Positions 3,794 to 25,599 of a stretch of 28,343 nt of DNA are shown here, piece by piece. A model generated the notes under the pieces. The model saw only the letters and a program-made list of their open reading frames with translations. It made no database searches and was not told the DNA's origin. Each line of letters starts with the position of its first letter. Position 1 is the stretch's first letter. This DNA is from a bacterium (GTDB lineage: Bacteria; Babelota; Babeliae; Babelales; JAUWHS01), in the NCBI GenBank assembly GCA_043818275.1, contig JBDRFY010000005.1, positions 1 to 28,343 on the forward strand, written 5' to 3'. The translations under genes were made by a program, and so were the position numbers.

Positions 3794-3984
3794 TGAAGCG
3801 CTCAACGGCTTAAAAGCCGTTGTATCAGCGCGGAATTCTTCGAAGCCAACCCTACTTCGCTTCCTCCTTCGTTAAAACTACGGAGGATATTCTTTGTAGC
3901 TTTAGCGAAAGAGAAAAAGCTTCGAAGGGTTCTACCCCGCCATTCATCCCAAGGCTAAAGCCTAGGGTATTCTGGCGAAGTAGA
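3794..3984 (-). mobile_element. Non-autonomous IS200/IS605-type miniature element (PATE-like: LE and RE hairpins, no genes)
   Basis: On the - strand: TTTAT, then a LE-like CGCCA-GAAT-hairpin(CCCTAGGCT TT AGCCTTGGG)-ATGAA-TGGCG. The distal RE-like hairpin CAACGGCTT/AAGCCGTTG (3803-3822) is followed by AGCGC-TTCA. GC-rich within an AT-rich intergenic region. Confidence 0.6.
3850..3929. repeat. Three nested 26-bp hairpin units
   Basis: The outer unit CCCTAC-TTCGCT^AAAGCTTC-GAAGGG is split by 54 bp: unit 3862-3887 (TCCTCC-TTCGTTAAAACTAC-GGAGGA), then TA, then inverted unit 3890-3915 (TTCTTT-GTAGCTTTAGCGAA-AGAGAA). Confidence 0.85.
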
Positions 3985-4003
3985 ATAAAACAAGGAGAAA
4001 GAG

Positions 4004-7000
4004 ATGGTCAATTTTTCGAGTCTGTCGAAGCGATTATTATTATTATTATTTGTAAGCTTAAATTTGTTTTGCGTGAAAAGAAAACGGGCAGGAATAGGAG
4101 AAGAAGGTTCAGAAAAAAAGCAAAAGAAAACGGGCTTATCTTTTTTTCAGGAACGTCTCGATGAAAACGCAAAAGAAGTTGGTTACGGCTATAAAACAGC
4201 AAATCTGATGGAATTTAAAAACGTTGTTGATAATTTAAGCGGCAAACTTCCGCAAGGTTATCAAGTTGCGGTTCCAAATTTTGTTGGAATTACAAGTGAA
4301 CAGATTCAAGATTTTTTTAATAAAAATGGGTTGGATATTCAGGCTCGTTGGAATCAGATTATTCCTTCAATGGATATTGATGACTCAATTCAATATTTAA
4401 AAGATCCCAATAATCGAAAAATTTTTATAGATAATTCTGAAAAGTTGGCAAATGAGATAGAAAATCTGGAAATTCCAGAACAGAGCCCTGATTTTCAGGC
4501 TGTTGCATCTTTTTTAAGCAAAGCTCAGCAAAATAATTGGCGGCTTATGGTTCGAAGCACAGGAAAAGAGGATACGAAAGAATTGCCAAATGCTGGGGGA
4601 AATCATAGCGAGCCAAATGTTTATCCGGATAAAGTTGCTGTAATAAACGCGATTAAAAAAGTTGTGGCATCTTATTTTAAAGAAAAATCACTGAGCCAAA
4701 GAATTGACGCGGGGGATAAAGATATTTTTGCTGATCCGTTAACACCGGTTTTAATTCAGCAAATGATTGGGGAGCCTATTGGCGAAACGCAAAATTTACA
4801 AGACATACCAGTTGGTTGCGTTGTTTACACTGGAGAAGTTGAAGGCTCAACGCCGGGAGTTATAACAATTCAGGCTGCGTTTGGACACAACGAAGGCGTT
4901 GTGAATAGCGAAGTCGCGGTGGACACGTATTACGTAAAAGACGGAAGCATCAGACCCGTTATTCAAATAAAAAATCAAAGAATTATTCCGGTTGAAAGCA
5001 ATGATGGTTATGGTTTGGAGTTGGTAAATAATCCGGAAGAAATAAAAAATGTTCAGGTGCTGAGTGATGAAGATATTTTAGTAATTAGTCAGGTTGCTCG
5101 TGCTATTCATGAATATTACAACGAGGCAATGGATATTGAATTGGTTTTTGAACCATCAACAAAAACAGTGTATCTGGTTCAGGCAAGACCATTGCAAATC
5201 AAAAATGAGGTTGAAGCAAGTTACATTTCAGACATAAAAACTATTTCTCAAGAAAATGTTTTAAAATGTTCAACGGTTAGCGCCGCTGGTGGAAGTGTTA
5301 GACACATAACAAATAAAAATCAGATAATTATTGCTTCGACATTACAACAAGCTTTGGATAAATATTTGTCTGGCGGCGTTGATCAATCTCAAGTTTTAGC
5401 TGTGATTGTTCAGGGTCAGGCGGAACCAACTTCGCACGCCGCGGCAATTTTTCGCGGCGCGGGAAAAGCAATTTTGACAAGTGATGGAATTGAAAAATTA
5501 GAAAAATGGCTGAATGAAGAAAATATAAATTTATTTGTTGACGTTCAACGTGAAATTGTTGTTAACACGAAAGATTTAGTGGATTTTGACGGTTTGATAA
5601 AAATCGGTTGGTTTAAACATCCAATTTCACAAAGAATGACAATAACTTTAGCCCCTTATGCTGAACCTGAATTTACAAAGCTTTTTTCAAAAAACATTCC
5701 ATTAAAAACACGCAAAGAATTAATAGAAACAATGAAAAATGGCAAAAATGTAATGGCAACGCGCGCATTAAAAACATTGCTTGCAAAAATTTCAAATACT
5801 TTAGAAGCCGGACAAGAAGTAGAAAATCAATCAGTGTTGCAAGCGCGAGCATTTAATGAGTTACAGCAAATTTACAATGTTGCGACAAAACTTGCGCAGG
5901 AAATGTTAAACCAAAAAATATTTGAAAAAGGGCCGCAAGATATTGAGCGTTTGTACGCAATTAATTTTCTGGAAGCGATTTTATTTCAGCCAAAAGAAAC
6001 ATCAAGATCTGTAAGTGTTTTTTCAGTCAAATCGGTTTTTGATGATTATGAAAAAAGTTATGAATTTATAAAAAAGATAAGAAAAAGAAGATTATTTTCA
6101 GAAGATGAATTAGAAAAGATAATTAATAATATAAATGAATTATCGATTATGCAATTTGGTTTTGAAGTTGCTTTAACAGATGAGTTGGAAAACAAATGGG
6201 TGAAATTTGTTTATGGTGTTTTCGTCGCTGATGAAGCAGGAAATATAAATAACCTTAAATCTGTTTTTGAAAAGATAAAAAAATTAGAAATTTTACCACT
6301 ATGGATGAATACGATTTTTGCATATGCGCAAGGAGATGTTGGAGCAATTCTTCAAGGTTTAAATAAGCAGTTAACTGAATCAGATCAATTTTTAAAAATA
6401 ATTTTGAATAAAAAAAACTGGTTGAAAAATTTTGATCCAAATAAGTTTGATGATCCAAAAAAATATGAAAAATTATTATCAAGTTTTAAAGAAAATATAT
6501 TAAAAGATTTTATTTCATATGATTTTATAAATGAAGTTAAAAATGGAACGTTGTTATCAAAAGAGGTTGCAATGGAAATTATGTCGAATATTGTAGATGC
6601 ATGGGATAAATCGATAAAAGCCTTAAAGGGAAGCGTTCAGTATGAGTTGAAAGATAAAGTTGAAAAATTCCGTGAGATGTTAAAAGTATATTTTGAATTT
6701 CTAAAAAAATGGAAAGGTTCTGTAGAATATAAAAATATATTTAACTCAATAGATCAGATTTTAAATAAACAAATTTTAGATTATGAGGCAGAACTTATAA
6801 ATTCAGTATCATTCAATGTTGAACTAACCGCAGTCGGCCGTAAGGGTGTTTTTGAAAGATATAAACCAAAAACGTTTGAAGATGTTTTTACGTTTATTCA
6901 TCAAAGCTTAATTAATATTATTTCTATAAAAACAAAAGAAATTTTTCCAGAAATTCAATTACCTGAATTGGTTAATAATGTTATTGAGATGTTGAAAAAA

Positions 7001-9136
7001 TTAGAAAGCGTAAGCTTATTTTATTATGAATTTAAAAATAATGATTTGATTGTGACATATAATAAAACTATTAGAACGCACAGCATTGTTTACCAATTGA
7101 GATATAACAAATTATCTTCCATGGTTTATTTAGAGACAAAATTTTATGGAGATGATGAAGAGGGGCGATGGGAACGGATGGCTGACTTTATAGACGTTGC
7201 CAGTGATTTAATGGAAATACCGTTAAGTAAGAATAATGCTATTAAAATGACAGAAATTTTTGAGTTTGAGATAGACAAAAATGTTAATGATGAAAAGTTG
7301 GATAAAATTTTTAAAATATTAGAACAGTGCTTAAAAATATCTTTAGATACAGATCATGTATATTTAAAGCGTGGCGTTTCGGGAAGAATATTTTTAAATA
7401 ATTTAAATAATATTTTTCAAAATAAAGAAGGAATTAATAGTTCAATAATAAAATTGTCTTTAGATAAAAATAAAATTAATTGGCTTTTGCCAGATGTTTT
7501 AAAAAACGTTGTTAAAAAAATAGATTTTTTAACAACAAAACAAGCTGATAATTTAAAAAAAATAAAAAATATGCTTTCAAATGAATCTTCTGAATATTTT
7601 ATAAAAACAATAGTTTTTATATTTAAAATTTTAAATGATCCGAGAGGTGTTTTAAGTGACTCGTTCTTCGGCCCGGAATATTATTTAGTAAATGAATCTA
7701 ATTTTTTAAATTTGTATTATAAACAGTTGACGGAGGCACAAAAATTGAAGTTGGGCGTTTATTTTTTTGGAGATGTTTTAGCCTCAATTTTTTTAGTTTT
7801 ACAATTAAATTTAGATTTAATTAATATTAACGAATTTCAATCATTGCGTTTTCAGGAGGAGCTTTTATTCATAAAATATTATTTTGAACTAGCAGATGGA
7901 AAAAAAATTAATGATATAATGGGTTTTTTTAATAAAATTTATGCTGAACAGAATGAAGAATTAGAAAAAAAAGCCTTAGTAGAATTTTATATTTATTCAA
8001 TTTCGATTTTATTCGAATCTAGTGATTCGAAAGCAAAAAATTTTGGAATGCAAATAATTAAAAAGGTTTTTGATGGTGAAAATGAAGAATTGAAAAAGGT
8101 GCCCTTAGAGCCATTTGGTGTTGTTTATGAATTACTTAAATCTAAAGTTTATGACGAGCAAGATCTTGCTATTAAAATTTTGACTAAAGTTTTTAATGAG
8201 GGTTCAGATGATCTCAAGATAAGAGTTTTGAAAATATCTGGTTTTGTTTCACATGTAGTCTCTTCAAATTCAACTGCAATAATAAATGGAATTTTAACTC
8301 TTTTACAACGAGTTTTTTCCGGCAATGACGAAAGTTTAAAAATAAAGATGTTAGGCAAAAAGTCGTATGTTTCTCCTTTTTATTTTTTAATAACATCCAA
8401 ATACAAACCTTTTGTTGATAAAGTGGAACAAATTATTGAAAATATTTTTAAATCTGGTTCAGAAGGGTTGAAAAAAGCGGCTTTAAATCCTTTGAATACA
8501 TTAATTGAATATTCAGATTCACAAAAAACAAAATTGTTAGCTTATTATGTTTTAAATGAAGTGCTTGATAATGGTTCGAATGAATTAAAAGAAGCATCTT
8601 TGAAGGCTTTTAATACCATGATAAAGAAGTTCCCTGTTTCAATTCAAGAGATTAATTTGGCAGAAAAGTTTTTAAATAACGTTTTTGTGCCAGGGTCAGA
8701 AAAAATAAAAAAAGAATTTTTAGGTAATATTGCCATTGTTATAAAATTAATTGAATCAGAAAATAAGGCTTTAAAAATCGCAAAATCCTTTTTTGTTGAT
8801 GTAATTGAGAAAGGTTCATCTGTTTTTAAAAAAGAATTATTCAAATTATATGGTCCAATTTATTATTTAACTGAAAAAAAGAGTGCGAAGGTTCTTGAAT
8901 TTGTTGTTGATATTTTGACAAATATTTTTGAAGGTGCAGATGATGAGTTGAAACATATGGTTTTGGATAGCTATTATACAATTCCAAATTTAATTAAAAC
9001 TAACAATGAATATGCTCTCTCTGCAGTAACAATGATTTTTAAAAATATTTTTTCTGGCGAAAATGAAGACCTTAAAGAAAAGGTTAAACAAGGGTTTGGC
9101 TATTACATCAAAAAACAAGGCATTAAAACCGATTGA
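4004..9136 (+). CDS. 1710-aa putative secreted dikinase-like protein: PEP synthase/PPDK ATP-grasp domain, phospho-His swivel domain and long helical/repeat region
   Basis: RBS AAGGAG. Signal-like residues 1-23. Motifs GYKTANL, VRSTGKED..NAG (about aa 183), IQQMI, FGHNEGVV, DIELVF (377), YLVQARP (393), TSHAA (His478). No recognisable PEP-binding TIM barrel follows. Confidence 0.85.
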   Translation: MVNFSSLSKRLLLLLFVSLNLFCVKRKRAGIGEEGSEKKQKKTGLSFFQERLDENAKEVGYGYKTANLMEFKNVVDNLSGKLPQGYQVAVPNFVGITSEQIQDFFNKNGLDIQARWNQIIPSMDIDDSIQYLKDPNNRKIFIDNSEKLANEIENLEIPEQSPDFQAVASFLSKAQQNNWRLMVRSTGKEDTKELPNAGGNHSEPNVYPDKVAVINAIKKVVASYFKEKSLSQRIDAGDKDIFADPLTPVLIQQMIGEPIGETQNLQDIPVGCVVYTGEVEGSTPGVITIQAAFGHNEGVVNSEVAVDTYYVKDGSIRPVIQIKNQRIIPVESNDGYGLELVNNPEEIKNVQVLSDEDILVISQVARAIHEYYNEAMDIELVFEPSTKTVYLVQARPLQIKNEVEASYISDIKTISQENVLKCSTVSAAGGSVRHITNKNQIIIASTLQQALDKYLSGGVDQSQVLAVIVQGQAEPTSHAAAIFRGAGKAILTSDGIEKLEKWLNEENINLFVDVQREIVVNTKDLVDFDGLIKIGWFKHPISQRMTITLAPYAEPEFTKLFSKNIPLKTRKELIETMKNGKNVMATRALKTLLAKISNTLEAGQEVENQSVLQARAFNELQQIYNVATKLAQEMLNQKIFEKGPQDIERLYAINFLEAILFQPKETSRSVSVFSVKSVFDDYEKSYEFIKKIRKRRLFSEDELEKIINNINELSIMQFGFEVALTDELENKWVKFVYGVFVADEAGNINNLKSVFEKIKKLEILPLWMNTIFAYAQGDVGAILQGLNKQLTESDQFLKIILNKKNWLKNFDPNKFDDPKKYEKLLSSFKENILKDFISYDFINEVKNGTLLSKEVAMEIMSNIVDAWDKSIKALKGSVQYELKDKVEKFREMLKVYFEFLKKWKGSVEYKNIFNSIDQILNKQILDYEAELINSVSFNVELTAVGRKGVFERYKPKTFEDVFTFIHQSLINIISIKTKEIFPEIQLPELVNNVIEMLKKLESVSLFYYEFKNNDLIVTYNKTIRTHSIVYQLRYNKLSSMVYLETKFYGDDEEGRWERMADFIDVASDLMEIPLSKNNAIKMTEIFEFEIDKNVNDEKLDKIFKILEQCLKISLDTDHVYLKRGVSGRIFLNNLNNIFQNKEGINSSIIKLSLDKNKINWLLPDVLKNVVKKIDFLTTKQADNLKKIKNMLSNESSEYFIKTIVFIFKILNDPRGVLSDSFFGPEYYLVNESNFLNLYYKQLTEAQKLKLGVYFFGDVLASIFLVLQLNLDLININEFQSLRFQEELLFIKYYFELADGKKINDIMGFFNKIYAEQNEELEKKALVEFYIYSISILFESSDSKAKNFGMQIIKKVFDGENEELKKVPLEPFGVVYELLKSKVYDEQDLAIKILTKVFNEGSDDLKIRVLKISGFVSHVVSSNSTAIINGILTLLQRVFSGNDESLKIKMLGKKSYVSPFYFLITSKYKPFVDKVEQIIENIFKSGSEGLKKAALNPLNTLIEYSDSQKTKLLAYYVLNEVLDNGSNELKEASLKAFNTMIKKFPVSIQEINLAEKFLNNVFVPGSEKIKKEFLGNIAIVIKLIESENKALKIAKSFFVDVIEKGSSVFKKELFKLYGPIYYLTEKKSAKVLEFVVDILTNIFEGADDELKHMVLDSYYTIPNLIKTNNEYALSAVTMIFKNIFSGENEDLKEKVKQGFGYYIKKQGIKTD
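7910..9090 (+). repeat. About 10 degenerate ~42-aa protein repeats (HEAT/ARM-like solenoid)
   Basis: Recurring cores: IYAEQNEELEKKAL, VFDGENEELKKVPL, VFNEGSDDLKIRVL, VFSGNDESLKIKML, IFKSGSEGLKKAAL, VLDNGSNELKEASL, VFVPGSEKIKKEFL, VIEKGSSVFKKELF, IFEGADDELKHMVL, IFSGENEDLKEKVK. Confidence 0.8.
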
Positions 9137-10157
9137 TCCAAAAGGACCTTTCTTTTTTATGAATTTTCCAAAGGCTGCCTGTTTGATGATTGCCACCTTG
9201 TTTTGAATTTAAGAACCGAATAATTTCATTGATAAATGACTTGCTTGGATTAAATTGAATTTTTTCCTGAATCAACCAGTGCAAAATTAATTGTTTTTGT
9301 AAAAATGAATCCTGTTTTTTAAATAAATTTAAATTACCAACAAAACAATTTTTTTGTTTATTCGCTCGTTCTGCTTGCCAGCCGAAGCCTGGGCGTAGGT
9401 TGGAGCTGGATCGAAGGATGAAAATTTCATTAAATTTTTGAATCACGATTTTTTGTAAGAAATCATCAACTTCTTTTAAGTTTTGCATTGAACTTTCAAG
9501 CTTTTTGTTTGCGCGTTCATCAATTTTTGAAAATGTGGGTAAAATGTATTTTCGGATTCTGTTTCTTAAAAAATCATCGGATTCATTTGTTGGATCGATT
9601 AGATATTCGATTTTGTTTTGATTTAGATAATTTAAAATTTCTTGTTTATCTAAATTTAAGAGCGGACGTAAATATTTTCCGTTAATTTCTTTAATTCCAG
9701 TCAATCCGCTTAAAGAACATCCGCGAATTAATCTAAGGAAAAAAGTTTCGAAGTTGTCCTGTTGATGATGGGCTGTTGCAATAAAATCACAATTTTGTTC
9801 ATTTTTAATTTTCTCAAAAAAATGACGGCGTAACTTTCGGCCAATTTCTTCCTTGGAGCCGTTATATTTTAAATTTAAGTTTAACTCGCTTGCTGTTGAA
9901 GTAAAAAATTGGATATTGTGTTTTTCGCACAACTTTTTACAAAACATTTGGTCGTTTCCAGATTCAATTCTCCATTCATGATTAAGATGCGCGCAAATTA
10001 ATCCTAAAGATTTTTCTTCATTAATTTTTTTTAAAATGTGAAATAAAAAAACAGAATCTGGCCCGCCGGAAAGAGCGAGAAGAATTTTTGGCTTTTCTGA
10101 GAAGGTGTTTTTTGAGATTAGGTTTTTAATTTGTTGTTTTGCTTTTTGTGTGATCAT
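9123..10157 (-). CDS. tilS: tRNA(Ile)-lysidine synthetase
   Basis: PP-loop ALSGGPDS, AHLNH, TAHHQQDNFET, RPLL, DPTN...RNRIR. 14-bp convergent overlap with the upstream gene. Confidence 0.95.
   Translation of the reverse strand: MITQKAKQQIKNLISKNTFSEKPKILLALSGGPDSVFLFHILKKINEEKSLGLICAHLNHEWRIESGNDQMFCKKLCEKHNIQFFTSTASELNLNLKYNGSKEEIGRKLRRHFFEKIKNEQNCDFIATAHHQQDNFETFFLRLIRGCSLSGLTGIKEINGKYLRPLLNLDKQEILNYLNQNKIEYLIDPTNESDDFLRNRIRKYILPTFSKIDERANKKLESSMQNLKEVDDFLQKIVIQKFNEIFILRSSSNLRPGFGWQAERANKQKNCFVGNLNLFKKQDSFLQKQLILHWLIQEKIQFNPSKSFINEIIRFLNSKQGGNHQTGSLWKIHKKERSFWINRF
9361..9420. repeat. Composite REP-like repeat inserted in-frame in tilS
   Basis: TTCGCTCGTTCTG[CTTG-CCAGCC-GAAGCCTGGGCGTA-GGTTGG]AGCTGGATCGAAGGATG, with the inner 30 bp at 9374-9403. 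Translated as ILRSSSNLRPGFGWQAERAN. Confidence 0.9.
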
Positions 10158-11827: not shown

Positions 11828-11904
11828 GGGCCTATAGCTCAGTTGGTTAGAGCACTCCGCTGATAACGGAGAGGTCAGTCGTTCGAGTCGACTTAGGCCC
11901 ACCA
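11828..11904 (+). tRNA. tRNA-Ile(GAT)
   Basis: GGGCCTA/TAGGCCC acceptor stem, anticodon arm CTCCG-CTGATAA-CGGAG, TTCGAGT T-loop, encoded CCA. Confidence 0.97.
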
Positions 11905-12056
11905 TCCTACGCCTTCACTTTCGAAGTTTAGCAAAAGAAGTATAGGCTATGGATGGCAGGCCAATCTTCGCTCGTTCATGTTGTCTTTACGGCGACATGT
12001 CCTCCGACGTGTCCACCATAGCTTTAGCGACGGTGGAAGCTTTATGCGAAGGATGA
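11902..12056. repeat. Cluster of four hairpin units (two nested pairs) between the tRNAs
   Basis: CCATCC-TACGCCT[11915-11943 degenerate unit]AGGCTAT-GGATGG-CAGG (11902-11960); CATG-TCCTCC-GA[CGTG-TCCACC-ATAGCTTTAGCGAC-GGTGGA]AGCTTTATGCGAA-GGATGA (11996-12056). Confidence 0.85.
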
Positions 12057-14167: not shown

Positions 14168-15348
14168 TGTTTGTAGTCCGTAATTTATAGCGGATTTTTT
14201 ATACGACTTAGCATATTTAAAATTTGTAAATAATTGAAAAGAGCGTTTGGTGAATGCCTTGGTATCAGGAGTCGATGAAGGAGGTGGAAGGCTGCCATAA
14301 GCTTCGGGGAGCTGCCAATCAAGCTTTGATCCGGAGATTTCCGAATGGGGAAACCCACCCAGGAAAATCCTGGGAACTTTTATCTGAATACATAGGGTAA
14401 AAGAGACAACGGTGTGAACTGAAACATCTAAGTAACACCAGGAAAAGAAAACGAATGTGATTCCCTAAGTAGTGGTGAGCGAAACGGGAACAGCCTAAAC
14501 TTATGCTGTGTAAGCCTGCATGCGTTGCAGTATAGGTGTTGTGGGAGTTGTTTGCTAGACATGCAGAGTCTAGATTATTTTTGTTGATTTAGTTGAATGT
14601 CTTGGAATGGGCAACCGAAGAAAGTGAAAGTCTTGTAAATTAAAAATCAATTAAAAATATTAACAAATTTCCCGAGTATCACGGAGCACGTGAAATTTCG
14701 TGAGAATCTGCCCCGACCATGGGGTAAGGCTAAATACTCCCTGATGACCGATAGTGAACAAGTACTGTGAAGGAAAGGTGAAAAGAACCCCGGGAGGGGA
14801 GTGAAATAGAATCTGAAACCAAACGTTTACAAGCTATGGAAGCGATATATACGTATGCGCGACCATGTGCCTTTTGCATAATGAGCCAACGAGTTGCTCT
14901 TACGTTGCAAGGTTAAGTTTAGAAAGAATGGAGCCGTAGCGAAAGCGAGTCTTAATAGGGCGATTAGTAACGTGAGGCAGACCCGAAACCTAGTGAGCTA
15001 TCCATGGACAGGATGAAGTCTTGGTAATTCGAGATGAAGGTCCGAACCAGTGTGGGTTGAAAACTGCTTGGATGATCTGTGGATAGGGGTGAAAGGCCAA
15101 TCAAACTAGGAAATAGCTGGTTCTCCCCGAAATATATTTAGGTATAGCCTTGTTCGATGATTTGCGGAGGTAAAGCACAGTTTAGGCTAGGGGGCATAAG
15201 CTTACCAAACCTTTACTAACTCTGAATACCGTAAATTTAGGACAGGAGTCAGACTGCGGGGGATAAGCTCCGTAGTCGAGAGGGAAACAGCCCAGACCAT
15301 TAGTTAAGGTCCTTAAATGTCCATTAAGTGGTTAAAGATGTGGAAATA

Positions 15349-15388
<40 letters not shown>

Positions 15389-16271
15389 TAAAGAAAGCGT
15401 AACAGCTCACTGGTCAAGTGTTTTTGCGCTGAAATATAAACGGGGCTTAAATGGATTACCGAAACTATGGCTGATGCTTTTAGCATCGGGGTAGGGGAGC
15501 GTTCTTTAACAGATACAAGTTTAACCGTAAGGATAGATGATGTTGGTTAAAGAAGTGAGTATGTTGGCATGAGTAACGAAAAAACAGGTGAAATTCCTGT
15601 TCGCCGTAAGCCCAAGGGTTCCGTGAGAAAGGTTTATCCACTCAGGGTTAGTCGATACCTAAGCCGAGGCCAAATGGAGTAGGCGATGGAAGGCAGGTTA
15701 AATATTCCTGCACCACTTTTTTACGTTTGAGTGATTGGGGTGACGCAGGAGGATAAGTCTACCTGGTATATGGGTTACCAGGCTAAGCAGTTAGAAGGAT
15801 TTCAGAGGCAAATCCATGAAGTCATTACTTTGAGCTGTGATGGGCATATTAATCTAAGCGAGAGATATGTTAGATTGAGTCCACGCTGACTAGAAAAACC
15901 TCTAGCGAGTAAAAGAGTGATCGTACCGTAAACCGACACAGGTGGGCGAGCTGAGTATGCTAAGGCGTTGAGATAATTCCCATTAAGGAACTCGGCAAAA
16001 TAGCCTCGTAACTTCGGGAGAAGAGGTGCCAGCGCCGTTATTTTGCAAAAAAGAAGCGGAGGCTGGTTGCAACAAAGAGGCCCAAGCGACTGTTTAACAA
16101 AAACACAGGGCCATGCAAACTCGTAAGAGGAAGTATATGGTCTGACGCCTGCCCAGTGCTGGAAGGTTAACAGGAGGTGTTAGCTCTTCGGAGCGAAGCG
16201 CTGAATCGAAGCCCCAGTAAACGGCGGCCGTAACTCTAACGGTCCTAAGGTAGCGAAATCCCTTGTCGGGT

Positions 16272-16986
16272 AAAATTCGTCGGATTAATTGCCCGAATGT
16301 CGTGGTGACACGGCATTAGTACACTGGCTAATATCGGGGAAGGCTAAGTTTTGATTTTATAATCAAGATAAGCTAATCCCGAGGGAACCTTGAATTTTTC
16401 AAGGACCTGTAACGACTGATCCGAAAGGTGAGGCGTACAACATAAGTTGACGCAATACGCCAGCTCTTGTCGAAAGGATAAAACATATGGATTTTGCCTC
16501 TTATATTACTGGTTTTGTGGATGGAGAAGGTTGTTTTTCGATTTCGTTTAATTTAAGAGCGAAGCTCAAAACCGGAATTGAAGTTAGACCAAGTTTTTCA
16601 ATTTCTCAAAATAAAAGAAGCTTAGGTGTTTTAAAAGAGATTCAGGCTTTTTTAAATTGTGGTTTTATTAGATTTTCAAAACGAGATCAAACTTATAAGT
16701 TCGAAGTTCGTTCGATAGATGATCTTGTAAGGAAGATCGTTCCACATTTTAAAAAGTTTCCTCTAAAAACATTTAAGCAAAAGGATTTTGAGAGTTTTGT
16801 GCAAGTTTGTGATTTAATTTTTAAATCTAAACATTTAAATCACGATTATTTGTGTAAAATAATTGAATGGTCTTATACAATGAATTCATCCGGAAAAAGA
16901 AAGTATTCAAAGGCAAAACTCCTAAGTGTTTTGGACAAGATGAAGAGATAGTCTGATCCCTTGTGAAAGCAAGGTAAACATAAATG
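16272..16986 (+). mobile_element. Group I intron (IA-type) at 23S position L1951, 715 nt
   Basis: Interrupts CCTTGTCGGGT^AAGTTCCGACC. The 5' exon ends in U and the intron ends in G. P1 TCGGGT/GCCCGA with U.G; P10 GTCGGA/TCCGAC; P3 CTGGC/GCCAG; P7 GACT/AGTC; two extra hairpins between P7 and P3'; P9 CCTTG/CAAGG. Confidence 0.95.
16487..16951 (+). CDS. Single-motif LAGLIDADG homing endonuclease (intron-encoded)
   Basis: YITGFVDGEGCFSI motif, FSISQ, HFKKFPLKTFKQKDF. RBS AAGGA. Lies in the P8 loop. Confidence 0.96.
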   Translation: MDFASYITGFVDGEGCFSISFNLRAKLKTGIEVRPSFSISQNKRSLGVLKEIQAFLNCGFIRFSKRDQTYKFEVRSIDDLVRKIVPHFKKFPLKTFKQKDFESFVQVCDLIFKSKHLNHDYLCKIIEWSYTMNSSGKRKYSKAKLLSVLDKMKR

Positions 16987-17460
16987 AAGTTCCGACCTGC
17001 ATGAATGGCGTAACGATTTGGGCGCTGTCTTGATGGGAAACTCAGTGAAATTGTAGTCTCGGTGAAAATGCCGAGTACCCGCAGTAGGACGGAAAGACCC
17101 TGTGCACCTTTACTATAACTTGACATTGATTTTTGGATTGGTATGTGTAGGATAGGCGGGAGACTTTGATGTTGTGGCGCTAGCTGCAGCGGAGTCGTCC
17201 TTGAAATACCGCCCTTATTGATTTGGAAATCTAACTTCTGCCCGTTATCCGGGGGAAAGACATTGTCTGGTGGGTAGTTTGACTGGGGTGGTCGCCTCCC
17301 AAAAGGTAACGGAGGCGTTCAAAGGTTCCCTCGTGACGAATAGAAATCGTCAGAAAGAGTGTAAAAGCAAAAGGGAGCTTGACTGCGAAACATACAGGTT
17401 GAGCAGGTACGAAAGTAGGATTTAGTGATCCAGTGGTTCCAAATGGAAGGGCCATTGCTA

Positions 17461-17497
<37 letters not shown>

Positions 17498-17521
17498 TCC
17501 TCTAAGAGTCCATATCGACGA

Positions 17522-17583
<62 letters not shown>

Positions 17584-17596
17584 TGGCTGTTCGCCA

Positions 17597-17631
<35 letters not shown>

Positions 17632-17681
17632 CAAGACAGTTCGGTCCTTATCCACTGTGGGCGTAGGATATTTGAGAGGAG

Positions 17682-17723
<42 letters not shown>

Positions 17724-18080
17724 ATTCCAGTTGTTTACCAAAAGCAACGCTGGGTAGCCAAGTTCGGATGAGATAACCGCTGAAAGCATCTAAGTGGGAA
17801 ACTCACCTCAAGATTAGATATCCCGTATTACTAAGCAATCAGATGAAGCTTCGGTTTCTGAAGAAAGTGTGTGATACTTTGAAGATTCCTCAAAGACTAT
17901 GAGGTTGATAGGCTGGGTGTGTAAGTGCAGTAATGTATTTAGCTAACCAGTACTAATAGATCGATAGTTTTATTTACGCTTTAAAAGTTTTTAAGAATGC
18001 GATTCGTATAAAATTTTGTTATTACGGATTATGGATTACAAACAATTTCAAGGTTTTTAGGTTTGAAAAATTTTAAAAAT

Positions 18081-18302: not shown

Positions 18303-18893
18303 ATGAAGTTCAAAAAATTATTTTTTTTAATCTTTATTTTTGCTTCAGCCTTTTTAGTTTTTAAAGAAATAGGAAAAAATTTTATGAAGAAACCTATTTT
18401 TGTCATTCAAAAACATGATGCCACAACTCTTCATTATGATTTTCGGATAGAAGTAGATGGTGTATTGAAATCGTGGGCTGTTCCAAAAGGTCCTTCATTA
18501 AATCCAAAAGATAAACGTTTAGCAATTATGACGACTGATCACAAAATGAGTTATGCAAAATTTGAAGGAGTTATTCCTGAAGGTGAATATGGTGCTGGAA
18601 CTGTTATGATTTGGGATAAAGGAACTTATAAGAATATAAAAGAAAAAGATGGTAAAATTGTACCAATTAAAAAATGTTTAAAAAACGGCAGTGTTGAAAT
18701 TTTTCTTGATGGTGAAAAATTAAAAGGTGTTTTCGCGTTGGTAAAAATGCAAAATAGCGATAAAAATTGGTTGTTGATTAAAATGAAAGATGAATATGCG
18801 GATGATAGAAAAAATATTGTAAAATCTGAATCTAAATCAGCGGTTACAAACCGTACGTTAAAAGAAATAGAAAAAAATGTTAAAACAAAATAA
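18303..18893 (+). CDS. Stand-alone LigD-type DNA 3'-phosphoesterase (PE domain)
   Basis: FVIQKHDATTLHYDFRIE, KSWAVPKGPS, DH..Y..FEG.IPEGEYGAGTVMIWDKG. An alternative start at 18384 (after AGGA) removes the hydrophobic leader. Confidence 0.92.
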   Translation: MKFKKLFFLIFIFASAFLVFKEIGKNFMKKPIFVIQKHDATTLHYDFRIEVDGVLKSWAVPKGPSLNPKDKRLAIMTTDHKMSYAKFEGVIPEGEYGAGTVMIWDKGTYKNIKEKDGKIVPIKKCLKNGSVEIFLDGEKLKGVFALVKMQNSDKNWLLIKMKDEYADDRKNIVKSESKSAVTNRTLKEIEKNVKTK

Positions 18894-19679: not shown

Positions 19680-19703
19680 ATTTAGAAGAATATTTAAATT
19701 TAT

Positions 19704-19733
19704 AAGCCGCAAGTTTTATCTTGCGGCTTTTTT
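19704..19733 (+). terminator. Rho-independent terminator
   Basis: AAGCCGCAAG-TTTTAT-CTTGCGGCTT followed by a T-tract. Confidence 0.85.
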
Positions 19734-19847
19734 GTTTTAAGGTGTTTAGGTTTGGAATTTAAAAAAACTTGAAGTTTAAATGTATTTTATGTTTTCTTAA
19801 ACAATCATATAAGGGATAAATTTAGTTCTAAACCAAAAGGGGAGGCG

Positions 19848-20228
19848 ATGTTTAAATCAATTTTGGTTGCGACTCTTTTTATAAATCTTTTTTGTATCAC
19901 AAATGTTTTTGCAGATGAAGAAGATCTTATCGAAAAAAAAGAAGTTACTTCTACTCGAATAATTAACATAAAAAATGTTTGTGGTTGTTCTGCTGCTATT
20001 GTTGTTATTGCTGCTGGGGTTACCATTACAGCAGCTGTAGTTGTTGGCGGTGTTATCTTGGCTGTCCGTTCTTTTGATATTCCAGATATAGATCTTTCTA
20101 ATTTTCATAATTTTGATTGGTCTGAATTTTGGTCTGAATTGTGGCCTGATAGGGATTGGCATTTTCCAGATTTCGATGATTGGATAAATGATATATTTGG
20201 ATGGTTATTTAAAAGGAAGGGATTATGA
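19848..20228 (+). CDS. Hypothetical membrane/exported protein with a Trp/Asp/Phe-rich tail
   Basis: RBS GGAGG; signal peptide ending VFA; long hydrophobic segment; ATGA overlap with the next gene. Confidence 0.8.
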   Translation: MFKSILVATLFINLFCITNVFADEEDLIEKKEVTSTRIINIKNVCGCSAAIVVIAAGVTITAAVVVGGVILAVRSFDIPDIDLSNFHNFDWSEFWSELWPDRDWHFPDFDDWINDIFGWLFKRKGL

Positions 20229-20890: not shown

Positions 20891-20927
20891 AAATTTTTTG
20901 AATTTACACAAAAATATTTATAAATCC

Positions 20928-21431
20928 TTAATTTTCAATATCTAGAAATTTTCCAGTTTCAATATCAAGCCATTTAATAAAAGATGAATTTAATTCTATA
21001 AATAAAATTTCTATTTTAATTAGTTGATGTGTTTTTTCTTCTATTTTAAATTCTAGGGTTTCAATTAAAGTTATTTGAGTTTTTAAATTTTCTTTTCTGA
21101 ATGGAGTTAATTCTTTTCCTTTCGGATTGTTTTCTATTATTTCCATCCTTTCTATCAAATTATATTTGTTTTCTTTTTCTACTATTTCAATATTTACAAT
21201 TAAATATTTACTATCTTGGGTCCATAATATTTCTTTTAAGTTATAATCTTTATATTCAAAATTTAATATTTTTATTGGTTTTTCTAATTCTTTAATTTGC
21301 ACCATTAAAAATTTTGTATTATCGTCAAAATATGCTGTTTTTGTTTTATCCGGTGATTCAACTTGAATTATTCCGAACAGATTTGATGTTAAGATTAAGC
21401 AGAAAATAGATAGAAAAATTTTAAGATTCAT
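20928..21431 (-). CDS. Exported hypothetical protein with WD40/PD40-like blade motifs
   Basis: RBS GGAGGAGG; signal peptide; ESPDKTKTAYF and ILWTQDSKYLIV. Confidence 0.7.
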   Translation of the reverse strand: MNLKIFLSIFCLILTSNLFGIIQVESPDKTKTAYFDDNTKFLMVQIKELEKPIKILNFEYKDYNLKEILWTQDSKYLIVNIEIVEKENKYNLIERMEIIENNPKGKELTPFRKENLKTQITLIETLEFKIEEKTHQLIKIEILFIELNSSFIKWLDIETGKFLDIEN

Positions 21432-21444
21432 TCCTCCTCCTTTT

Positions 21445-22653
21445 TTATCTAGGATAAGAATTTCTGGTTTTTAATTTATTTGCAATGTCGCTTATATCTG
21501 AAGCGTTTAATAATTGAACCAGTTTTGTATTAATCGCATTGTACAATTCTCTATTGTTATACTGATTTTGTTCATCAACATACCAATTATTTTTTTGTAA
21601 AATTTGCGTTATATCTTTAGTTACTCCATTTAGTAATGTTGGATCGTTAATAATTGCTTGTTGATAATTGTAAAAATTATCACGCAGATATTGATTGTCT
21701 CTTACGTAATAGGTTATGAGATATTGTTTGATCCATTCATTTATATACTTGTCAAAAAGTTTATTTGTAATCGTTGTGTAAATTGCTCTGTTGCTTGTTC
21801 TTGTCATATTATCCGCAAAGTCAAAATAACCTTGTCTGAAATTTGAAAATCCGGCAACATTTGGCATTGGAAAATAGTAATCAGCATTCATTGATTCAAA
21901 TAAAGAATCGACAATCGTTTGAATATTTGTATCAGTTGGCTTATTAAAAAATTTTGAAATATCATTTGATTGAAAAAAACTCAAGATAAATATTTTATAG
22001 TATCTGGAATTTTTTGATTGTTGTGCTAAGCCGATTTGTGCTCCAAGACCATCAACTTTTGCACCTAAGTGCATAATTGCAGTTAATTTTCCAAGGTCAT
22101 AACAAATTTGTTGTATATTTATTAGCTGTGAACTTACTCTTGGATAATTATTTACTATTTTTTCTACTTCATCATAACCTATAAATTCACCCTTTATTTC
22201 TGATTCAGAAATATCATTTTTATTATATGTTCTGTATCTGAGATACATTTGGGTTAAATAACCGCTTACAGATTCTTTTAATGGGTAAAGTCGCTCCATA
22301 AAAAGAAGGCATGTTTCACTTACAATTTCTAATCTATTTGGTTTTGGAAATGAAGCGCGATTTAAAAATGTTGTATCTGTGTTGTATCGTGTAAGTGAAT
22401 CTTGTAATTTTTTTAAAATTGTAAATTCATTCGTATATTTTCCGCACAATGTTTTGCTCAATGTTCCTTTAACAGCTAATTCATTTGCAGTACTTCCCCA
22501 AACTTCTCTTTCAGGTCCTTTACCTAATAAAATTGGATTTGAATATTGATCTGGATATTTATAAATCAGAGCTGCTTTAATAGCACTTGGAATGATTGAA
22601 TTTAAATTGTTTAAAAAAATTATAGAAATAAAAAGTATTGATATTTTTTTCAT
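21445..22653 (-). CDS. Exported protein-kinase-like protein, probably a pseudokinase
   Basis: RBS AAGGAG; signal peptide; LLGKGPEREVW, LAVK, NEFTIL, LFMERL, AIMHLGAKVDG, IFILSFFQ, YYFPMP. Confidence 0.7.
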   Translation of the reverse strand: MKKISILFISIIFLNNLNSIIPSAIKAALIYKYPDQYSNPILLGKGPEREVWGSTANELAVKGTLSKTLCGKYTNEFTILKKLQDSLTRYNTDTTFLNRASFPKPNRLEIVSETCLLFMERLYPLKESVSGYLTQMYLRYRTYNKNDISESEIKGEFIGYDEVEKIVNNYPRVSSQLINIQQICYDLGKLTAIMHLGAKVDGLGAQIGLAQQSKNSRYYKIFILSFFQSNDISKFFNKPTDTNIQTIVDSLFESMNADYYFPMPNVAGFSNFRQGYFDFADNMTRTSNRAIYTTITNKLFDKYINEWIKQYLITYYVRDNQYLRDNFYNYQQAIINDPTLLNGVTKDITQILQKNNWYVDEQNQYNNRELYNAINTKLVQLLNASDISDIANKLKTRNSYPR

Positions 22654-22721
22654 AATTTCTCCTTACCTTTTTTAATTTTATCTAAATTTAATTTATTTAA
22701 ATTAAGTTTGACAATTAAATG

Positions 22722-22751
22722 AAAAAATCCCAAGTTTTATCCAGGGATTTT
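22722..22751 (-). terminator. Probable terminator after speD-speE
   Basis: On the - strand, AAAATCCC..GGGATTTT hairpin ending in a T6 tract, 16 nt after the stop codon. Confidence 0.6.
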
Positions 22752-22767
22752 GCTTTTTATTTTGATT

Positions 22768-24273
22768 TTACTTAAATATATCTTGCAAATATTTTGGTAA
22801 AATTGCTGATGCGAAATGAATTTCAGGTGAGTAATATTTCAGATTTTGTAGATTTAATAGTTTGAATTTTTCTTTTATTTCTTTTTCGGTTACAGAACTT
22901 AAATCAAATTTGGCGGCCATCATAAAACTAAATTCACCACCTTGATAAGTTGGAACAACGGCTTTATGAATTTTTACAGATTCAAATACGCTTTTAACTC
23001 TTTTGTGGATTGTTGCGATTTCTTTTGATTGATATTCAAAGGATCCACTTTGAATTGAAATGACACCATTTTTAGTTAATGCCTTTTTTACATCTTGATA
23101 AAAGGCTTCTGTTATTAATTCTTCAGCTGGACCATCAGGATCTGATAAATCCATTATTATTACATCAAAATAGTTTAAATGATTTTTAACAACTTTTTTT
23201 CCATCATCAATTATAAGATTTGTTTTTTTATTTTCAAAGGCGCCTTCAGATAAAGTAGGTATGTGCTTTTTACAAAGTTCAACAACTTCAGCATCAATTT
23301 CTACAATATATACTTCTTCTATTTCATGTTTTAAAACTTCTCTTAACGCACCTCCATCACCTCCACCTATAATTAAAACTTTTTTAGGGTTTGGATGATA
23401 AAACATTGGAGTATGTATCATCATTTCATGATAAATAAAATTATCATTTTCTGTTGTTTGAATAATTCCATCAAGAACAAGCATTTTACCAAAGAAATTT
23501 GTATCATAAATTTCGATATTTTGGAATTCAGATTTAGCAGAATATAATTTTTCTTTTGTTTTTATTCCGATTTTAAAATTGGGCTCACTATTTGGAATGT
23601 TTCTTTCAAAGAACCAGGATGAATCGTTATAATAGTCAATTCCTATTGTAAAAGATTCAGGCGTTTCGATTTCTTTTTTATTTGAAGTTAAATCAATTAA
23701 TACTTGAGTTAAATCAACGAGTCCTGTTTCTTTATTGGCTTTAAATGTTTTTTGTTCATTAACAACTGTCGTTAATTTAGTATTTGTTTTTAAGGGCTCT
23801 TTTTTATATCCTCTCTTAACTTCTTGAATTTCAACGATTTCTGGTTCAAGGATATCTTTTAAATATTCAATAGCTTTTTGTGGTTTAGCTTTTGGTCCAC
23901 AAGTAAACGCATCAACAGCAATATAACCATCTTCTTCAAGCCATGTATGAATTGTTATATGAGATTCTTCTAAAATAACAGCACTTGTTATTCCGGGAGG
24001 AAGTATTTCGTTTGGTGCTTCAAATTTATGTGAAATAATTTCAAGGGGACTAGCATCAGCTTTTTTTGCTGCTTCGGTTAAAAGCTTTTCTACATCTAAA
24101 TCTTTTAATTTTTCAGGTTCTACACCCCAAAATTCTGCCAAAATATGAAGTCCTGCATATTGTTCACCGTTTTCATCTGAAACCCAATGAATTGAATGTT
24201 CTATATCTTTAGCATTTAATGAAATAGTAACTATTATAAAAAGACAAAATATGATTTGTTTAAAGCTTCTCAT
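22768..24273 (-). CDS. speD-speE: S-adenosylmethionine decarboxylase-spermidine synthase fusion with a signal-peptide-like N-terminus
   Basis: SpeD: GLHILAEFWG, LEESHITIHTW (E-S autocleavage), DAFTCG. SpeE: LVLDGIIQ, YHEM, LIIGGGDGG, VEID, DLSDP. ATG at 24273 follows GGAG; the ORF track starts at TTG 24285. Confidence 0.95.
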   Translation of the reverse strand: MRSFKQIIFCLFIIVTISLNAKDIEHSIHWVSDENGEQYAGLHILAEFWGVEPEKLKDLDVEKLLTEAAKKADASPLEIISHKFEAPNEILPPGITSAVILEESHITIHTWLEEDGYIAVDAFTCGPKAKPQKAIEYLKDILEPEIVEIQEVKRGYKKEPLKTNTKLTTVVNEQKTFKANKETGLVDLTQVLIDLTSNKKEIETPESFTIGIDYYNDSSWFFERNIPNSEPNFKIGIKTKEKLYSAKSEFQNIEIYDTNFFGKMLVLDGIIQTTENDNFIYHEMMIHTPMFYHPNPKKVLIIGGGDGGALREVLKHEIEEVYIVEIDAEVVELCKKHIPTLSEGAFENKKTNLIIDDGKKVVKNHLNYFDVIIMDLSDPDGPAEELITEAFYQDVKKALTKNGVISIQSGSFEYQSKEIATIHKRVKSVFESVKIHKAVVPTYQGGEFSFMMAAKFDLSSVTEKEIKEKFKLLNLQNLKYYSPEIHFASAILPKYLQDIFK

Positions 24274-24345
24274 TAACCACTCCAAAAGATTATTATGAAA
24301 ATAAAACAGATTTAATTTTGTATTGTACTTATAAGATCAGAGAAA

Positions 24346-25599
24346 TCAAGGGGAATTTATATTTTGAGGGTTTAGTTTAATTTTTATTTCTTCCAAATCC
24401 GTTAAAGTTTTTTGATAACGTTCTGAATTGGAAGTGAATTCCTGATAAAGTTTATCTATTTCTTTAGTTAACATTTTTACATTACATTCACCTTGAATTA
24501 GTTCTTTAAAAACTTCTTTGTCTAAAAATAAATTTGGCAAGCCGACATAAGATTTTTGAAATATTAGTTTTGCCATTAAATAAGTAATTAGTGGAATTTT
24601 AAATGTGATTATAGTTGGAATTTTTAATAAAGCTAAAAATAAGGTTATTGTTCCTGGTTTTGAAATCGCGATACAGCAAGAACTCAATTTTTCAAAAAGT
24701 TTTTCATCATCTTTTATAACTTCTATTTTATTTTTTAAATTATATTTTTTTATTTCCTGTTCTATTTGTTCCTTTGAAATATATTCAGCAATTGGCAAAA
24801 TAAAAGATATTTCAGGATGTTTTTTACTTATAATTTGTGCTACTTCTAAAAAAATAGGCAACATTATTTTTATTTCACTTTTACGTGAACCTGGACAAAG
24901 TGCGATTTTATTTTCTTTTTTAGTATTTGCATCAAGATAAGGTTTAATTTTTTCATATCCAGGCCAACCAAGAAATTCAGTTTCAAGGCCTTGCTTTTTG
25001 TACCAATTAGCTTCAAATGGATAAACAACAATTGTTTTGTCGGAGTAATTTTTGAAAAAATAATCTAAGCCCCATTTCCCCCATATCCACATTTCTGGCG
25101 GAGCAATGTATGTAATTTTAATTTCAGGTTTGCTTTTCTTTAATTTATACATCAAAGGAATGTTTGTGAGTGGACAATCGATTAAAATCACTTCACTAAA
25201 ATTATTTTCTAAAATGTAGTTTGATAATATCTTTAATCCATACCAGCGATCGGGAAGGTTTTTGATGAATTGTATTGGGCCGACAGCGCCTAAAATTAGA
25301 TTTTTATAGTTATCATAAATTTGTGCGCCAGCTTTTTGTAAATTTTGGCCTCCAATAGCTTCGCATTTAATGGGATTTTCTCCATCCCGTTCACCCTGCC
25401 TGCCCGACGAAGCCTTGGCGTAGACTGGAGCTTGTCGAAGGGTTAAGTACCATGCTCCAATTTGTTCGGCAGATGTTTCTCCTGTTACCATGAATATTTT
25501 GTGTGTATTGTGTGTATTTTGTGTTGCAAATATAGGGGTAAAATTAAGATTTATTGTTAGAAAAATAAAAATATTTAGTTTAATTAAGTTTTTTAGCAT
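24346..25599 (-). CDS. lpxB: Lipid-A-disaccharide synthase-like glycosyltransferase
   Basis: IFMVTGETS, AIGG, YIAPPEMWIW, YPFE, LCPGSRKSEI, KPGTITL, YVGLPN, FKELIQ. Divergent, with an N-terminal extension and a repeat-derived insert. Confidence 0.85.
   Translation of the reverse strand: MLKNLIKLNIFIFLTINLNFTPIFATQNTHNTHKIFMVTGETSAEQIGAWYLTLRQAPVYAKASSGRQGERDGENPIKCEAIGGQNLQKAGAQIYDNYKNLILGAVGPIQFIKNLPDRWYGLKILSNYILENNFSEVILIDCPLTNIPLMYKLKKSKPEIKITYIAPPEMWIWGKWGLDYFFKNYSDKTIVVYPFEANWYKKQGLETEFLGWPGYEKIKPYLDANTKKENKIALCPGSRKSEIKIMLPIFLEVAQIISKKHPEISFILPIAEYISKEQIEQEIKKYNLKNKIEVIKDDEKLFEKLSSCCIAISKPGTITLFLALLKIPTIITFKIPLITYLMAKLIFQKSYVGLPNLFLDKEVFKELIQGECNVKMLTKEIDKLYQEFTSNSERYQKTLTDLEEIKIKLNPQNINSP
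25386..25442. repeat. Composite REP-like repeat inserted in-frame in lpxB
   Basis: CCCGTTCACCCTG[CCTG-CCCGAC-GAAGCCTTGGCGTA-GACTGG]AGCTTGTCGAAGGG, with the inner 30 bp at 25399-25428. Translated as TLRQAPVYAKASSGRQGERD. Confidence 0.9.

What the first reader, a model, noticed from the sequence alone, without database searches (positions are those of the whole stretch)
3850..25442. Self-nesting 30-bp hairpin mini-element with an apparent AGCT target and no target duplication
Seen: nine copies of one unit, a 6-bp arm + 14-nt core (approx. TWCGCYAARGCTWC) + 6-bp arm, with or without a CANG tail. They lie at 3850-3929 (x3), 9374-9403, 11902-12056 (x4) and 25399-25428. The arms covary (TCCTCC/GGAGGA, TCCACC/GGTGGA, CCATCC/GGATGG, CCAGCC/GGTTGG), so structure is conserved over sequence. 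The three cleanest insertions (9374, 12008, 25399) are all exactly 30 bp, start with CNTG, sit immediately 5' of AGCT, and removing them restores the host repeat with no duplication. The core can itself contain AGCT, which would explain the Russian-doll nesting. Established: tetranucleotide-adjacent insertion without duplication is characteristic of HUH/Y1 enzymes (IS200/IS605 TnpA, RAYT/TnpA-REP). Inference: a minimal non-autonomous ssDNA element whose 3n length lets it persist in genes. No mobilising enzyme is in the window. Two insertions (3862, 11915) do not strictly fit the AGCT rule.
Basis: partly seen in the sequence, partly recalled or inferred. Interest (0 to 1): 0.85.

Follow-up and report, generated by a model that had tools for sequence, protein, structure and literature searches.

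The report
Solo hairpin of tRNA-end nuclease cassette
A 30-base DNA hairpin inserts by itself into genes, into other repeats and into its own copies in many bacteria; it appears to be the gene-less offshoot of a tiny nuclease cassette that sits at tRNA ends, not of the HUH transposases first proposed.

Summary
The unit is real and has been inserted repeatedly.
- This genome has 120 copies after removing 4 false hits, against 0-2 in shuffles.
- Exact empty junctions exist for three window insertions. Orthologues lack the tilS insert.

The AGCT rule fails: 7 of 51 sites here, 4 of 173 elsewhere. The target is a loose (G)(C)W^Y(C/A). There is no classical duplication, but 1-3 nt overlaps are enriched.

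HUH/Y1 is not supported. Five 1-2-contig genomes with 29-52 cores have no detectable Y1 gene.

The unit lies within 300 bp upstream of an 80-aa Slx1-like GIY-YIG gene in 21 of 29 and 73 of 80 loci, mostly behind a tRNA or tmRNA. A covarying second arm there pairs with the tRNA's terminal CA.

Best reading: the solo unit is the non-autonomous derivative of this cassette, spread by nuclease nicking plus host repair (mechanism inferred). It resembles Ssn/NTS but is a different clade and repeat. Ten literature searches found no description. This scan noted the cassette earlier on other DNA.

The parts
3850..3929 (-). Outer hairpin unit without CANG tail, split in its inner loop by a 54-bp dimer (strand given = CNTG/purine strand)
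   Evidence: unsplit form in contigs C12, C27, C80
3862..3915 (.). Tail-to-tail dimer of two units (3862-3887 and 3890-3915), inserted at GCT^AAAG with no duplication
   Evidence: empty junction found exactly 4 times in the genome
3793..3989 (+). Multi-copy host module with IS200/IS605-like end hairpins (likeness inferred). Its second site, between 3956 and 3957, is empty here and filled with a 30-bp unit in other copies
   Evidence: filled in C12, C41, C57, C72 twice, C86
9374..9403 (+). 30-bp solo unit, in frame in tilS
9363..9419 (+). Host repeat (27 bp without the unit) in tilS. Host plus unit add 19 codons that are absent from the G001 orthologue
9123..10157 (-). tilS, open through the insertion
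   Evidence: TIGR02432 above cut-off
11828..11904 (+). tRNA-Ile(GAT); its CCA forms the first three bases of the following unit
11902..11960 (-). tRNA-anchored unit (left end of the cassette, no nuclease gene here), followed by a second CCA
11915..11941 (+). Degenerate inner module in the loop of the tRNA-anchored unit; recurs at other tRNAs and in G001
11996..12056 (+). 31-bp unit split by the 12008 copy; its own host is not resolved
12008..12037 (+). 30-bp solo unit nested in the core of another unit
   Evidence: empty junction found exactly once, 9 times within 1 mismatch
25399..25428 (+). 30-bp solo unit, in frame in an lpxB-like gene
25386..25442 (+). Host repeat in the lpxB-like gene; the same family flanks a second GIY-YIG clade as inverted pairs
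24346..25599 (-). lpxB-like gene (TIGR00215 at 178 bits, below the 190 cut-off), open through the insertion

Best explanation
The 30-bp unit is a REP-like ssDNA hairpin: a 5' CNTG tag, a 6-bp stem, a purine-rich 3x3 internal loop and a short variable inner stem. It is the free, gene-less derivative of a small selfish cassette: tRNA/tmRNA-CCA | hairpin F | CANG-CCA | spacer | arm X' | hairpin R | 80-aa Slx1-like GIY-YIG gene. SHOWN: the layout, its spread across phyla, gain and loss at orthologous tRNAs, and repeated independent insertion of solo units at loose (G)(C)W^Y(C/A) sites, often in other hairpin repeats, short tandem arrays and its own core. The tRNA junction CA^CCA fits the same consensus. 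INFERRED: the nuclease binds the tagged hairpin on exposed single-stranded DNA and nicks beside it, as SsnA does with NTS. Host repair then copies the hairpin into a nicked target by a short template switch using 1-3 nt of microhomology, stopping after CANG (solo unit), further on (truncated cassettes at tRNAs) or after the gene. Filled host repeats spread further by gene conversion. In the full cassette X' pairs with the left arm from C75-A76 of the tRNA onward and may place the R-bound enzyme on the CCA junction (speculative).
For: Unit within 300 bp upstream of the GIY-YIG clade in 21 of 29 phylum loci and 73 of 80 best-hit loci from many phyla. tRNA/tmRNA within 400 bp in 21 of 29 and 65 of 80. 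Controls: 1 of 29 IS200 tnpA loci, 9 of 29 loci of the other GIY-YIG clade, and 0 units in 148 kb around tilS/lpxB orthologues. Co-occurrence in 200 genomes: 39 of 43 genomes with at least 10 cores have the gene, 18 of 43 have a Y1 gene. X/X' are complementary within one error and directly followed by an R-type hairpin in 63 of 109 loci, against 25.5% of swapped pairs. At least 25 of 46 tRNA/tmRNA genes of this genome start a unit at CCA, and several orthologues in G001 differ in presence or sequence. Seven different unit sequences sit at one position of a host repeat that has 10 filled and 36 empty copies. Empty/filled pairs occur in this genome and at the repeats flanking two Y1 genes of G187 (L147 vs L155). 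The protein matches Slx1 structures (E 4e-9) and keeps invariant Y3, Y17, G19, R27, E63. Precedent: SsnA cuts ssDNA a few bases 5' of a tagged hairpin (PMC11893778, sections read).
Against: No cleavage or insertion was observed. A GIY-YIG nuclease has no known joining activity (own knowledge), so insertion needs host enzymes. 26 of 136 genomes with a core had no detectable gene and 17 of 64 without a core had one; related genomes are not independent, so the p-values overstate. The second GIY-YIG clade also co-occurs with the core (58 of 136 vs 6 of 64). Only hairpins upstream are conserved (units downstream in 2 of 29 and 2 of 80), so the cassette has no clear right end. The X/X' search kept the best match per locus, and 46 of 109 loci did not pass. 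Enrichment of hairpin targets was seen only in the metagenome set (57 of 119 vs shuffled mean 41, maximum 51), not in the own-genome, viral or phylum sets. 5 of 20 other Y1 loci carried units in flanking repeats.
Confidence: 0.6

Rival explanations
1. HUH/Y1 (IS200/IS605 TnpA or RAYT) peel-and-paste mobilises the unit, with NGCT as target tetranucleotide and CANG as the right-end tetranucleotide.
For: Tagged hairpin and duplication-free junctions resemble REP and IS608 ends (PMC6006769, passages). The genome has six Y1 matches. Units sit in repeats flanking some Y1 genes (5 of 20 loci).
Against: No fixed tetranucleotide. No co-occurrence with PF01797 in 200 genomes. G149, G127, G143, G151 and G112 (1-2 contigs, 88-95% complete, 29-52 cores) have no match to PF01797, NF047646 or the local Y1 alignment (one search had no positive control). 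Where units flank Y1 genes they are insertions into that gene's own repeats, with empty versions beside close homologues.
Confidence: 0.07
2. No dedicated enzyme: the hairpin is copied by polymerase template switching at stalled forks or spontaneous breaks, then carried by host repeats and gene conversion. The nuclease gene only shares the tRNA niche.
For: Weak target consensus with 1-3 nt microhomology. Insertions in short tandem arrays (14 of 119 vs 2.9 expected). Mixed filled/empty combinations in the 3793-3989 module imply recombination or precise loss.
Against: Unit ends are very precise and the unpaired tag is conserved across hundreds of unrelated sites. The fixed leader geometry holds across phyla. 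Genome-level co-occurrence with the gene.
Confidence: 0.15
3. The hairpins are RNA elements (terminator or processing switch of the tRNA trailer, leader controlling the nuclease gene), and solo copies spread through an RNA intermediate.
For: The tRNA-linked unit folds on the transcript and is often followed by a T run. X and X' offer two alternative pairings that both involve the CCA. The R hairpin ends in GGAGGA-like sequence near the start codon.
Against: Wobble pairs favour the purine strand (19 vs 4), which is antisense to the tRNA for hairpin F but sense for hairpin R. Copies in ORFs lie on both strands (16 and 7 of 23). Many tRNA orthologues lack it. No Rfam match in the window. I did not search for a linked reverse transcriptase.
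Confidence: 0.1
4. A domesticated host system like Neisseria SsnA/NTS: the nuclease restricts incoming or exposed ssDNA marked by the hairpin, and copies are kept for that role.
For: SsnA lowers integration of NTS-bearing DNA (PMC11893778). The gene family is common and multi-copy (128 of 201 genomes).
Against: Patchy presence, 0-52 cores per genome, turnover between congeners, and insertion into tilS and an lpxB-like gene look selfish. This reading does not explain how copies arise.
Confidence: 0.08

Closest known systems
Ssn nucleases with NTS/SRM repeats (Chenal et al. 2025, PMC11893778; parts 1-4 of 11 and passages read)
   Same: Single-domain GIY-YIG gene tied to a roughly 30-nt hairpin with an unpaired 5' tetranucleotide tag and many solo copies in the genome.
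   Different: Tag CNTG rather than CGTC; 3x3 internal loop; hairpins only upstream of the gene, on opposite strands, anchored at tRNA CCA ('tRNA' occurs 0 times in that paper's main text). The protein clade is separate from a CGTC-type-flanked GIY-YIG in my tree. Insertion with empty sites is shown here; in the parts I read the paper only raises it as a hypothesis.
GTAG- and CGTC-tagged REPs and REPtrons (Di Nocera et al. 2013, PMC3733652; parts 1-3 of 8, passages, 4 supplement files searched; figures not held)
   Same: 20-40 bp tagged stem-loops, singletons and tail-to-tail dimers, complex loops with GC-flanked inner stems, some in-frame intragenic copies, some REPs inserted into other palindromes.
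   Different: Different tag; partner is not a tyrosine transposase; tRNA-end anchoring. Core motifs were not found in the supplement text, but consensus figures 1 and 2 could not be seen.
IS200/IS605 ends and RAYT/TnpA-REP (Quentin et al. 2018, PMC6006769; passages)
   Same: Tetranucleotide 5' of a hairpin; duplication-free junctions at clean sites.
   Different: No conserved target tetranucleotide and no Y1 gene linkage. The X' arm is only an analogy to a guide sequence.
Rickettsia palindromic elements (as summarised in PMC3733652)
   Same: Palindromic repeats translated in frame inside housekeeping genes.
   Different: 30 bp, self-nesting, with an identified candidate nuclease partner; unrelated sequence as far as tested.
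Stand-alone prokaryotic Slx1-like GIY-YIG proteins (PMC1564403, passages) and T4 SegB in a tRNA cluster (PMC2330249, abstract start in search listing)
   Same: Minimal GIY-YIG domain; SegB shows that a free-standing GIY-YIG gene can spread a tRNA region.
   Different: The passages read give no hairpin or tRNA-end association for the Slx1-like proteins. SegB is a phage homing endonuclease, and no solo hairpins are mentioned in what I saw.

Membership tests
IS200/IS605 non-autonomous element | Conserved target tetra- or pentanucleotide at the insertion point | tested here: not met
   AGCT 7 of 51 and 4 of 173; loose W^Y bias only
IS200/IS605 non-autonomous element | Cognate Y1 TnpA in genomes with many copies | tested here: not met
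IS200/IS605 non-autonomous element | No target-site duplication | tested here: inconclusive
   Zero overlap at 82 of 173 sites and at clean empty/filled pairs, but 1-3 nt overlap enriched
REP/RAYT (REPtron) | GTAG tag 5' of the hairpin | tested here: not met
   Tag is CNTG
REP/RAYT (REPtron) | RAYT gene flanked by the repeat as its own REP | tested here: not met
   Y1 genes have other repeats; units occur there as secondary insertions in 5 of 20 and 1 of 29 loci
REP-like repeat (broad sense) | Multi-copy 20-40 bp tagged stem-loop, mostly extragenic | tested here: met
   120 copies; 23 inside ORFs that cover about 79% of the genome
Ssn / NTS-SRM | Single-domain GIY-YIG gene physically linked to the hairpin | tested here: met
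Ssn / NTS-SRM | CGTC-tagged NTS/SRM motif, often on both sides of the gene | tested here: not met
   CNTG tag; units downstream in only 2 of 29 and 2 of 80 loci
Ssn / NTS-SRM | Membership of the cd10448 clade | tested here: inconclusive
   No CDD library or SsnA sequence was at hand. The clade is apart from one CGTC-type-flanked protein (L453) used as a stand-in, and its best structure hits are Slx1
Ssn / NTS-SRM | Site-specific cleavage of ssDNA only | not testable with these tools
   Needs biochemistry
MITE (IS-derived, terminal repeats plus fixed duplication) | Terminal inverted repeats at both ends and a fixed-length duplication | tested here: not met
   Asymmetric tag; exact flank duplication 0-1 nt in 104 of 119 metagenome sites

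The most novel reading that the evidence does not exclude
An 80-residue Slx1-like GIY-YIG nuclease drives a REP-like mobile system with no transposase. It is aimed at tRNA 3' ends by intramolecular DNA pairing (X' with C75-A76 onward), and it spawns a 30-nt self-nesting insertion element found across bacterial phyla and in viral contigs.
Probability: 0.3. Interest if true: 0.85.

Novelty: new variant of a known kind. Interest (0 to 1): 0.62.

Why it matters
How REP-like repeats multiply is still open, and Di Nocera et al. noted tagged repeats with no transposase partner. Here a 30-bp repeat comes with exact empty/filled pairs, a measurable target bias and one tightly linked candidate enzyme, so its insertion mechanism can be tested directly. 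It also proposes a substrate for a common family of stand-alone Slx1-like proteins, a possible new specificity of ssDNA nuclease beside Ssn. And it explains recurrent 10-residue inserts in housekeeping proteins of these bacteria.

Tried and rejected
- The generic repeat finder was swamped by AT-rich matches and showed only one pair.
- A loose core pattern over 201 genomes matched no more than its reversed control; it was discarded and replaced by a 16-nt pattern (137 of 201 genomes, one control hit in all).
- Rfam: only rRNA and tRNA in the window. NCBIfam names neither GIY-YIG clade above cut-off.
- Watson-Crick DNA folding did not separate the strands; the strand call rests on wobble counts.
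- A rule 'inserted one base 5' of a stem' fitted some hosts but not the Y1-flanking repeats or the IS605-like hairpin; rejected.
- 'The tail copies the target' was rejected: tail and downstream tetranucleotides often differ.
- The hairpin-target test was positive in 1 of 4 sets only.
- Sequencing runs: no RNA holder listed, and four DNA holders had small shares. Laid contigs gave no record bridging an insertion site among the pieces shown, so there is no information on polymorphism or expression.
- lpxB series: the G001 protein with the bare host repeat is closer to this genome's second lpxB copy (63%) than to the window gene (38%), and the host sits a few codons off. It is an empty host copy, not a proven orthologous empty site.
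- In the tree script, 9 of 18 added loci were not parsed and were left out.
- Literature searches that found no description. Subscription papers, figures and bioRxiv supplements were not visible.
Full report
SETTING. The window (contig C5 of G000; 1.33 Mb, 31% GC) carries tilS, an rRNA operon with tRNA-Ile and tRNA-Ala, and an lpxB-like gene. Earlier scan notes call the genome Dependentiae (TM6), and the best hit of its GIY-YIG alignment is a Dependentiae record. I did not place it by a marker tree.

OBSERVATION. All nine copies are present. A structural scan (6-bp arms, 3-nt internal loops, GC- or GT-started inner stem) found 124 hits in the genome against 0-2 in five shuffles. Four false hits were dropped, leaving 120. 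Arms show compensatory pair types, and the inner stem-loop varies from 7 to about 20 nt while staying complementary. Its purine-rich GAA/GAA-type loop could form sheared G-A pairs (own knowledge, not tested).

MOBILITY. Exact empty junctions exist in the genome for 12008, 25399 and the 54-bp dimer at 3862. The window itself holds an empty site (3956^3957) that is filled in six other copies of the same module. One host repeat has 36 empty and 10 filled copies carrying seven different unit sequences at the same position, which points to repeated independent insertion. In tilS, host plus unit add 19 codons missing from the same-genus orthologue and from most of the other 28 aligned orthologues; two or three have unrelated extra residues there. 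In G187 two Y1 genes have the same flanking repeat with and without a 30-bp unit and no duplication. The exact 16-nt core occurs in 136 of 200 other genomes of the phylum.

TARGET. AGCT precedes 7 of 51 distinct tagged sites here and 4 of 173 elsewhere. The bias is loose: -1 is A/T in 134 of 173, +1 is C/T in 142, +2 is C/A in 130, and GCT precedes 22 (2.7 expected). Self-nesting at the core's GCT is real but a minority (2 of 51, 3 of 119, 3 of 54, 1 of 32). There is no fixed duplication. However, the unit's first bases recur after it: at least 1 nt in 91 of 173 (64.6 by permutation) and at least 2 nt in 50 (34.8); at tRNA ends the whole CCA recurs. Targets were enriched for hairpins only in the metagenome set; tandem-like junctions were enriched there (14 vs 2.9) and borderline in the viral set. 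Tagged copies inside long ORFs are all 3n (15 of 15) against 33 of 44 outside, so 3n length is a survival filter as well as the modal size.

PARTNER ENZYME. The genome has six small stand-alone GIY-YIG genes in two clades, one GIY-YIG match in a 567-aa frame, and six Y1 matches. Clade A genes are flanked by inverted copies of the host repeat. Clade B genes (80 aa, Slx1-like) follow a tRNA plus the unit. In relatives a unit lies within 300 bp of 22 of 29 clade B loci, 9 of 29 clade A loci and 1 of 29 IS200 tnpA loci, with none in 148 kb of control DNA. 5 of 20 other Y1 loci have units; in those I inspected they lie inside the gene's own repeats, and several of the 20 are broken IS200-type genes. 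Among the 80 best clade B hits from GTDB, with record titles including Alphaproteobacteria, Verrucomicrobia, Acidobacteria, Cloacimonadaceae and Patescibacteria, 73 have a unit upstream and 65 a tRNA or tmRNA. Over 200 genomes the core co-occurs with clade B (odds ratio 11.7) and clade A (7.2) but not with Y1 (0.8) (kin are not independent). Five 1-2-contig genomes with 29-52 cores lack any Y1 match in three searches and all have clade B.

CASSETTE. The leader reads tRNA-CCA, hairpin F (whose first arm begins with that CCA), CANG-CCA, spacer, X', hairpin R in the opposite orientation, then the gene. X' is complementary to the stretch from C75 through the first arm and loop of F and covaries with it. 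63 of 109 loci pass within one error (37 perfect, counted from the output), against 25.5% of swapped pairs. X' ends in NNTG directly before hairpin R, so the tag of R is the partner of the tRNA's CA. At least 25 of 46 tRNA/tmRNA genes in this genome begin such a unit, mostly without the gene, and congeneric orthologues differ. The window's 11902 copy is one of these truncated left ends.

MECHANISM. Shown: structure, dispersal, insertion polymorphism, target bias and gene linkage. Inferred: nicking of ssDNA by the clade B nuclease next to the tagged hairpin, by analogy with SsnA (PMC11893778), then microhomology-assisted template-switch repair by host enzymes, then gene conversion among host repeats. 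The three filled/empty combinations in the 3793-3989 module need recombination or precise loss. I put the linkage to clade B at about 0.9, its causal role in spreading solo units at about 0.6-0.65, and the specific copy mechanism at about 0.35.

KNOWN OR NEW. It works like a REP/Ssn-type nuclease-hairpin pair but fails the defining tests for IS200/IS605 elements, REPtrons and, on tag and layout, NTS/SRM. The link of clade names to CDD numbers other than cd10448 is recalled and was not tested. Ten literature searches found no description; consensus figures of PMC3733652, supplements of PMC11893778 and subscription papers were not seen and could hold the repeat. Other agents of this scan described the tRNA-end cassette and in-frame copies on other contigs of this genome and in other genomes. 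Those notes are not independent support; the Ssn paper came to me through them. New here are the empty/filled evidence for the solo unit, the refutation of the AGCT and HUH claims, the microhomology bias and the X/X' geometry.

VERDICT. Real and inserted repeatedly; a new variant of a known kind; interest 0.62.

Noticed in passing
window 16487-16951: LAGLIDADG endonuclease ORF (PF00961) inside the 23S rRNA gene (14228-17977), probably in a group I intron.
   Followed up: partly
window 18303-18893: Stand-alone LigD 3'-phosphoesterase domain gene (TIGR02777 above cut-off).
   Followed up: no
window 4004-9136: 1710-aa protein with an N-terminal PEP-synthase-like nucleotide-binding region and roughly 123-bp repeats near its C-terminal end.
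   Followed up: no
window 3793-3989: Gene-less module with IS200/IS605-like end hairpins in several contigs, often at contig ends, showing three filled/empty combinations at two sites.
   Followed up: partly
L001, L002 (G000 C18:20500-20790, C75:30799-31071): A second GIY-YIG clade flanked by inverted copies of the host repeat that receives the unit in tilS and lpxB: a REPtron-like layout with a non-Ssn GIY-YIG.
   Followed up: partly
G000 C13:27161, C13:27348, C50:67251: Units inserted at GCT^CA in what look like duplicated tRNA 5' fragments (D-arm position) near intact tRNAs.
   Followed up: partly
L009-L012, L145-L157: Y1 genes of an 'HTYS...HxVWSTK' type flanked by long inverted repeats, TIRtron-like; their repeats are frequent hosts of the unit.
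   Followed up: partly
L447 (G023:C12:27113-27230): Four cores in tandem with a 31-bp period.
   Followed up: no
L167, L176, L222: Permuted leader: X pairs with X' first, and the right half of hairpin F lies after hairpin R (seen in L167 and L222).
   Followed up: no
G000 C34, C78, C15, C28: Two nearly identical tmRNA genes and two odd tRNAs lacking CCA, in line with the 4% contamination estimate.
   Followed up: no
L055 (G000 C16:2105-3298): Second lpxB copy, also with a different hairpin repeat inserted in the same loop, as in G001: a recurrent tolerant site.
   Followed up: partly
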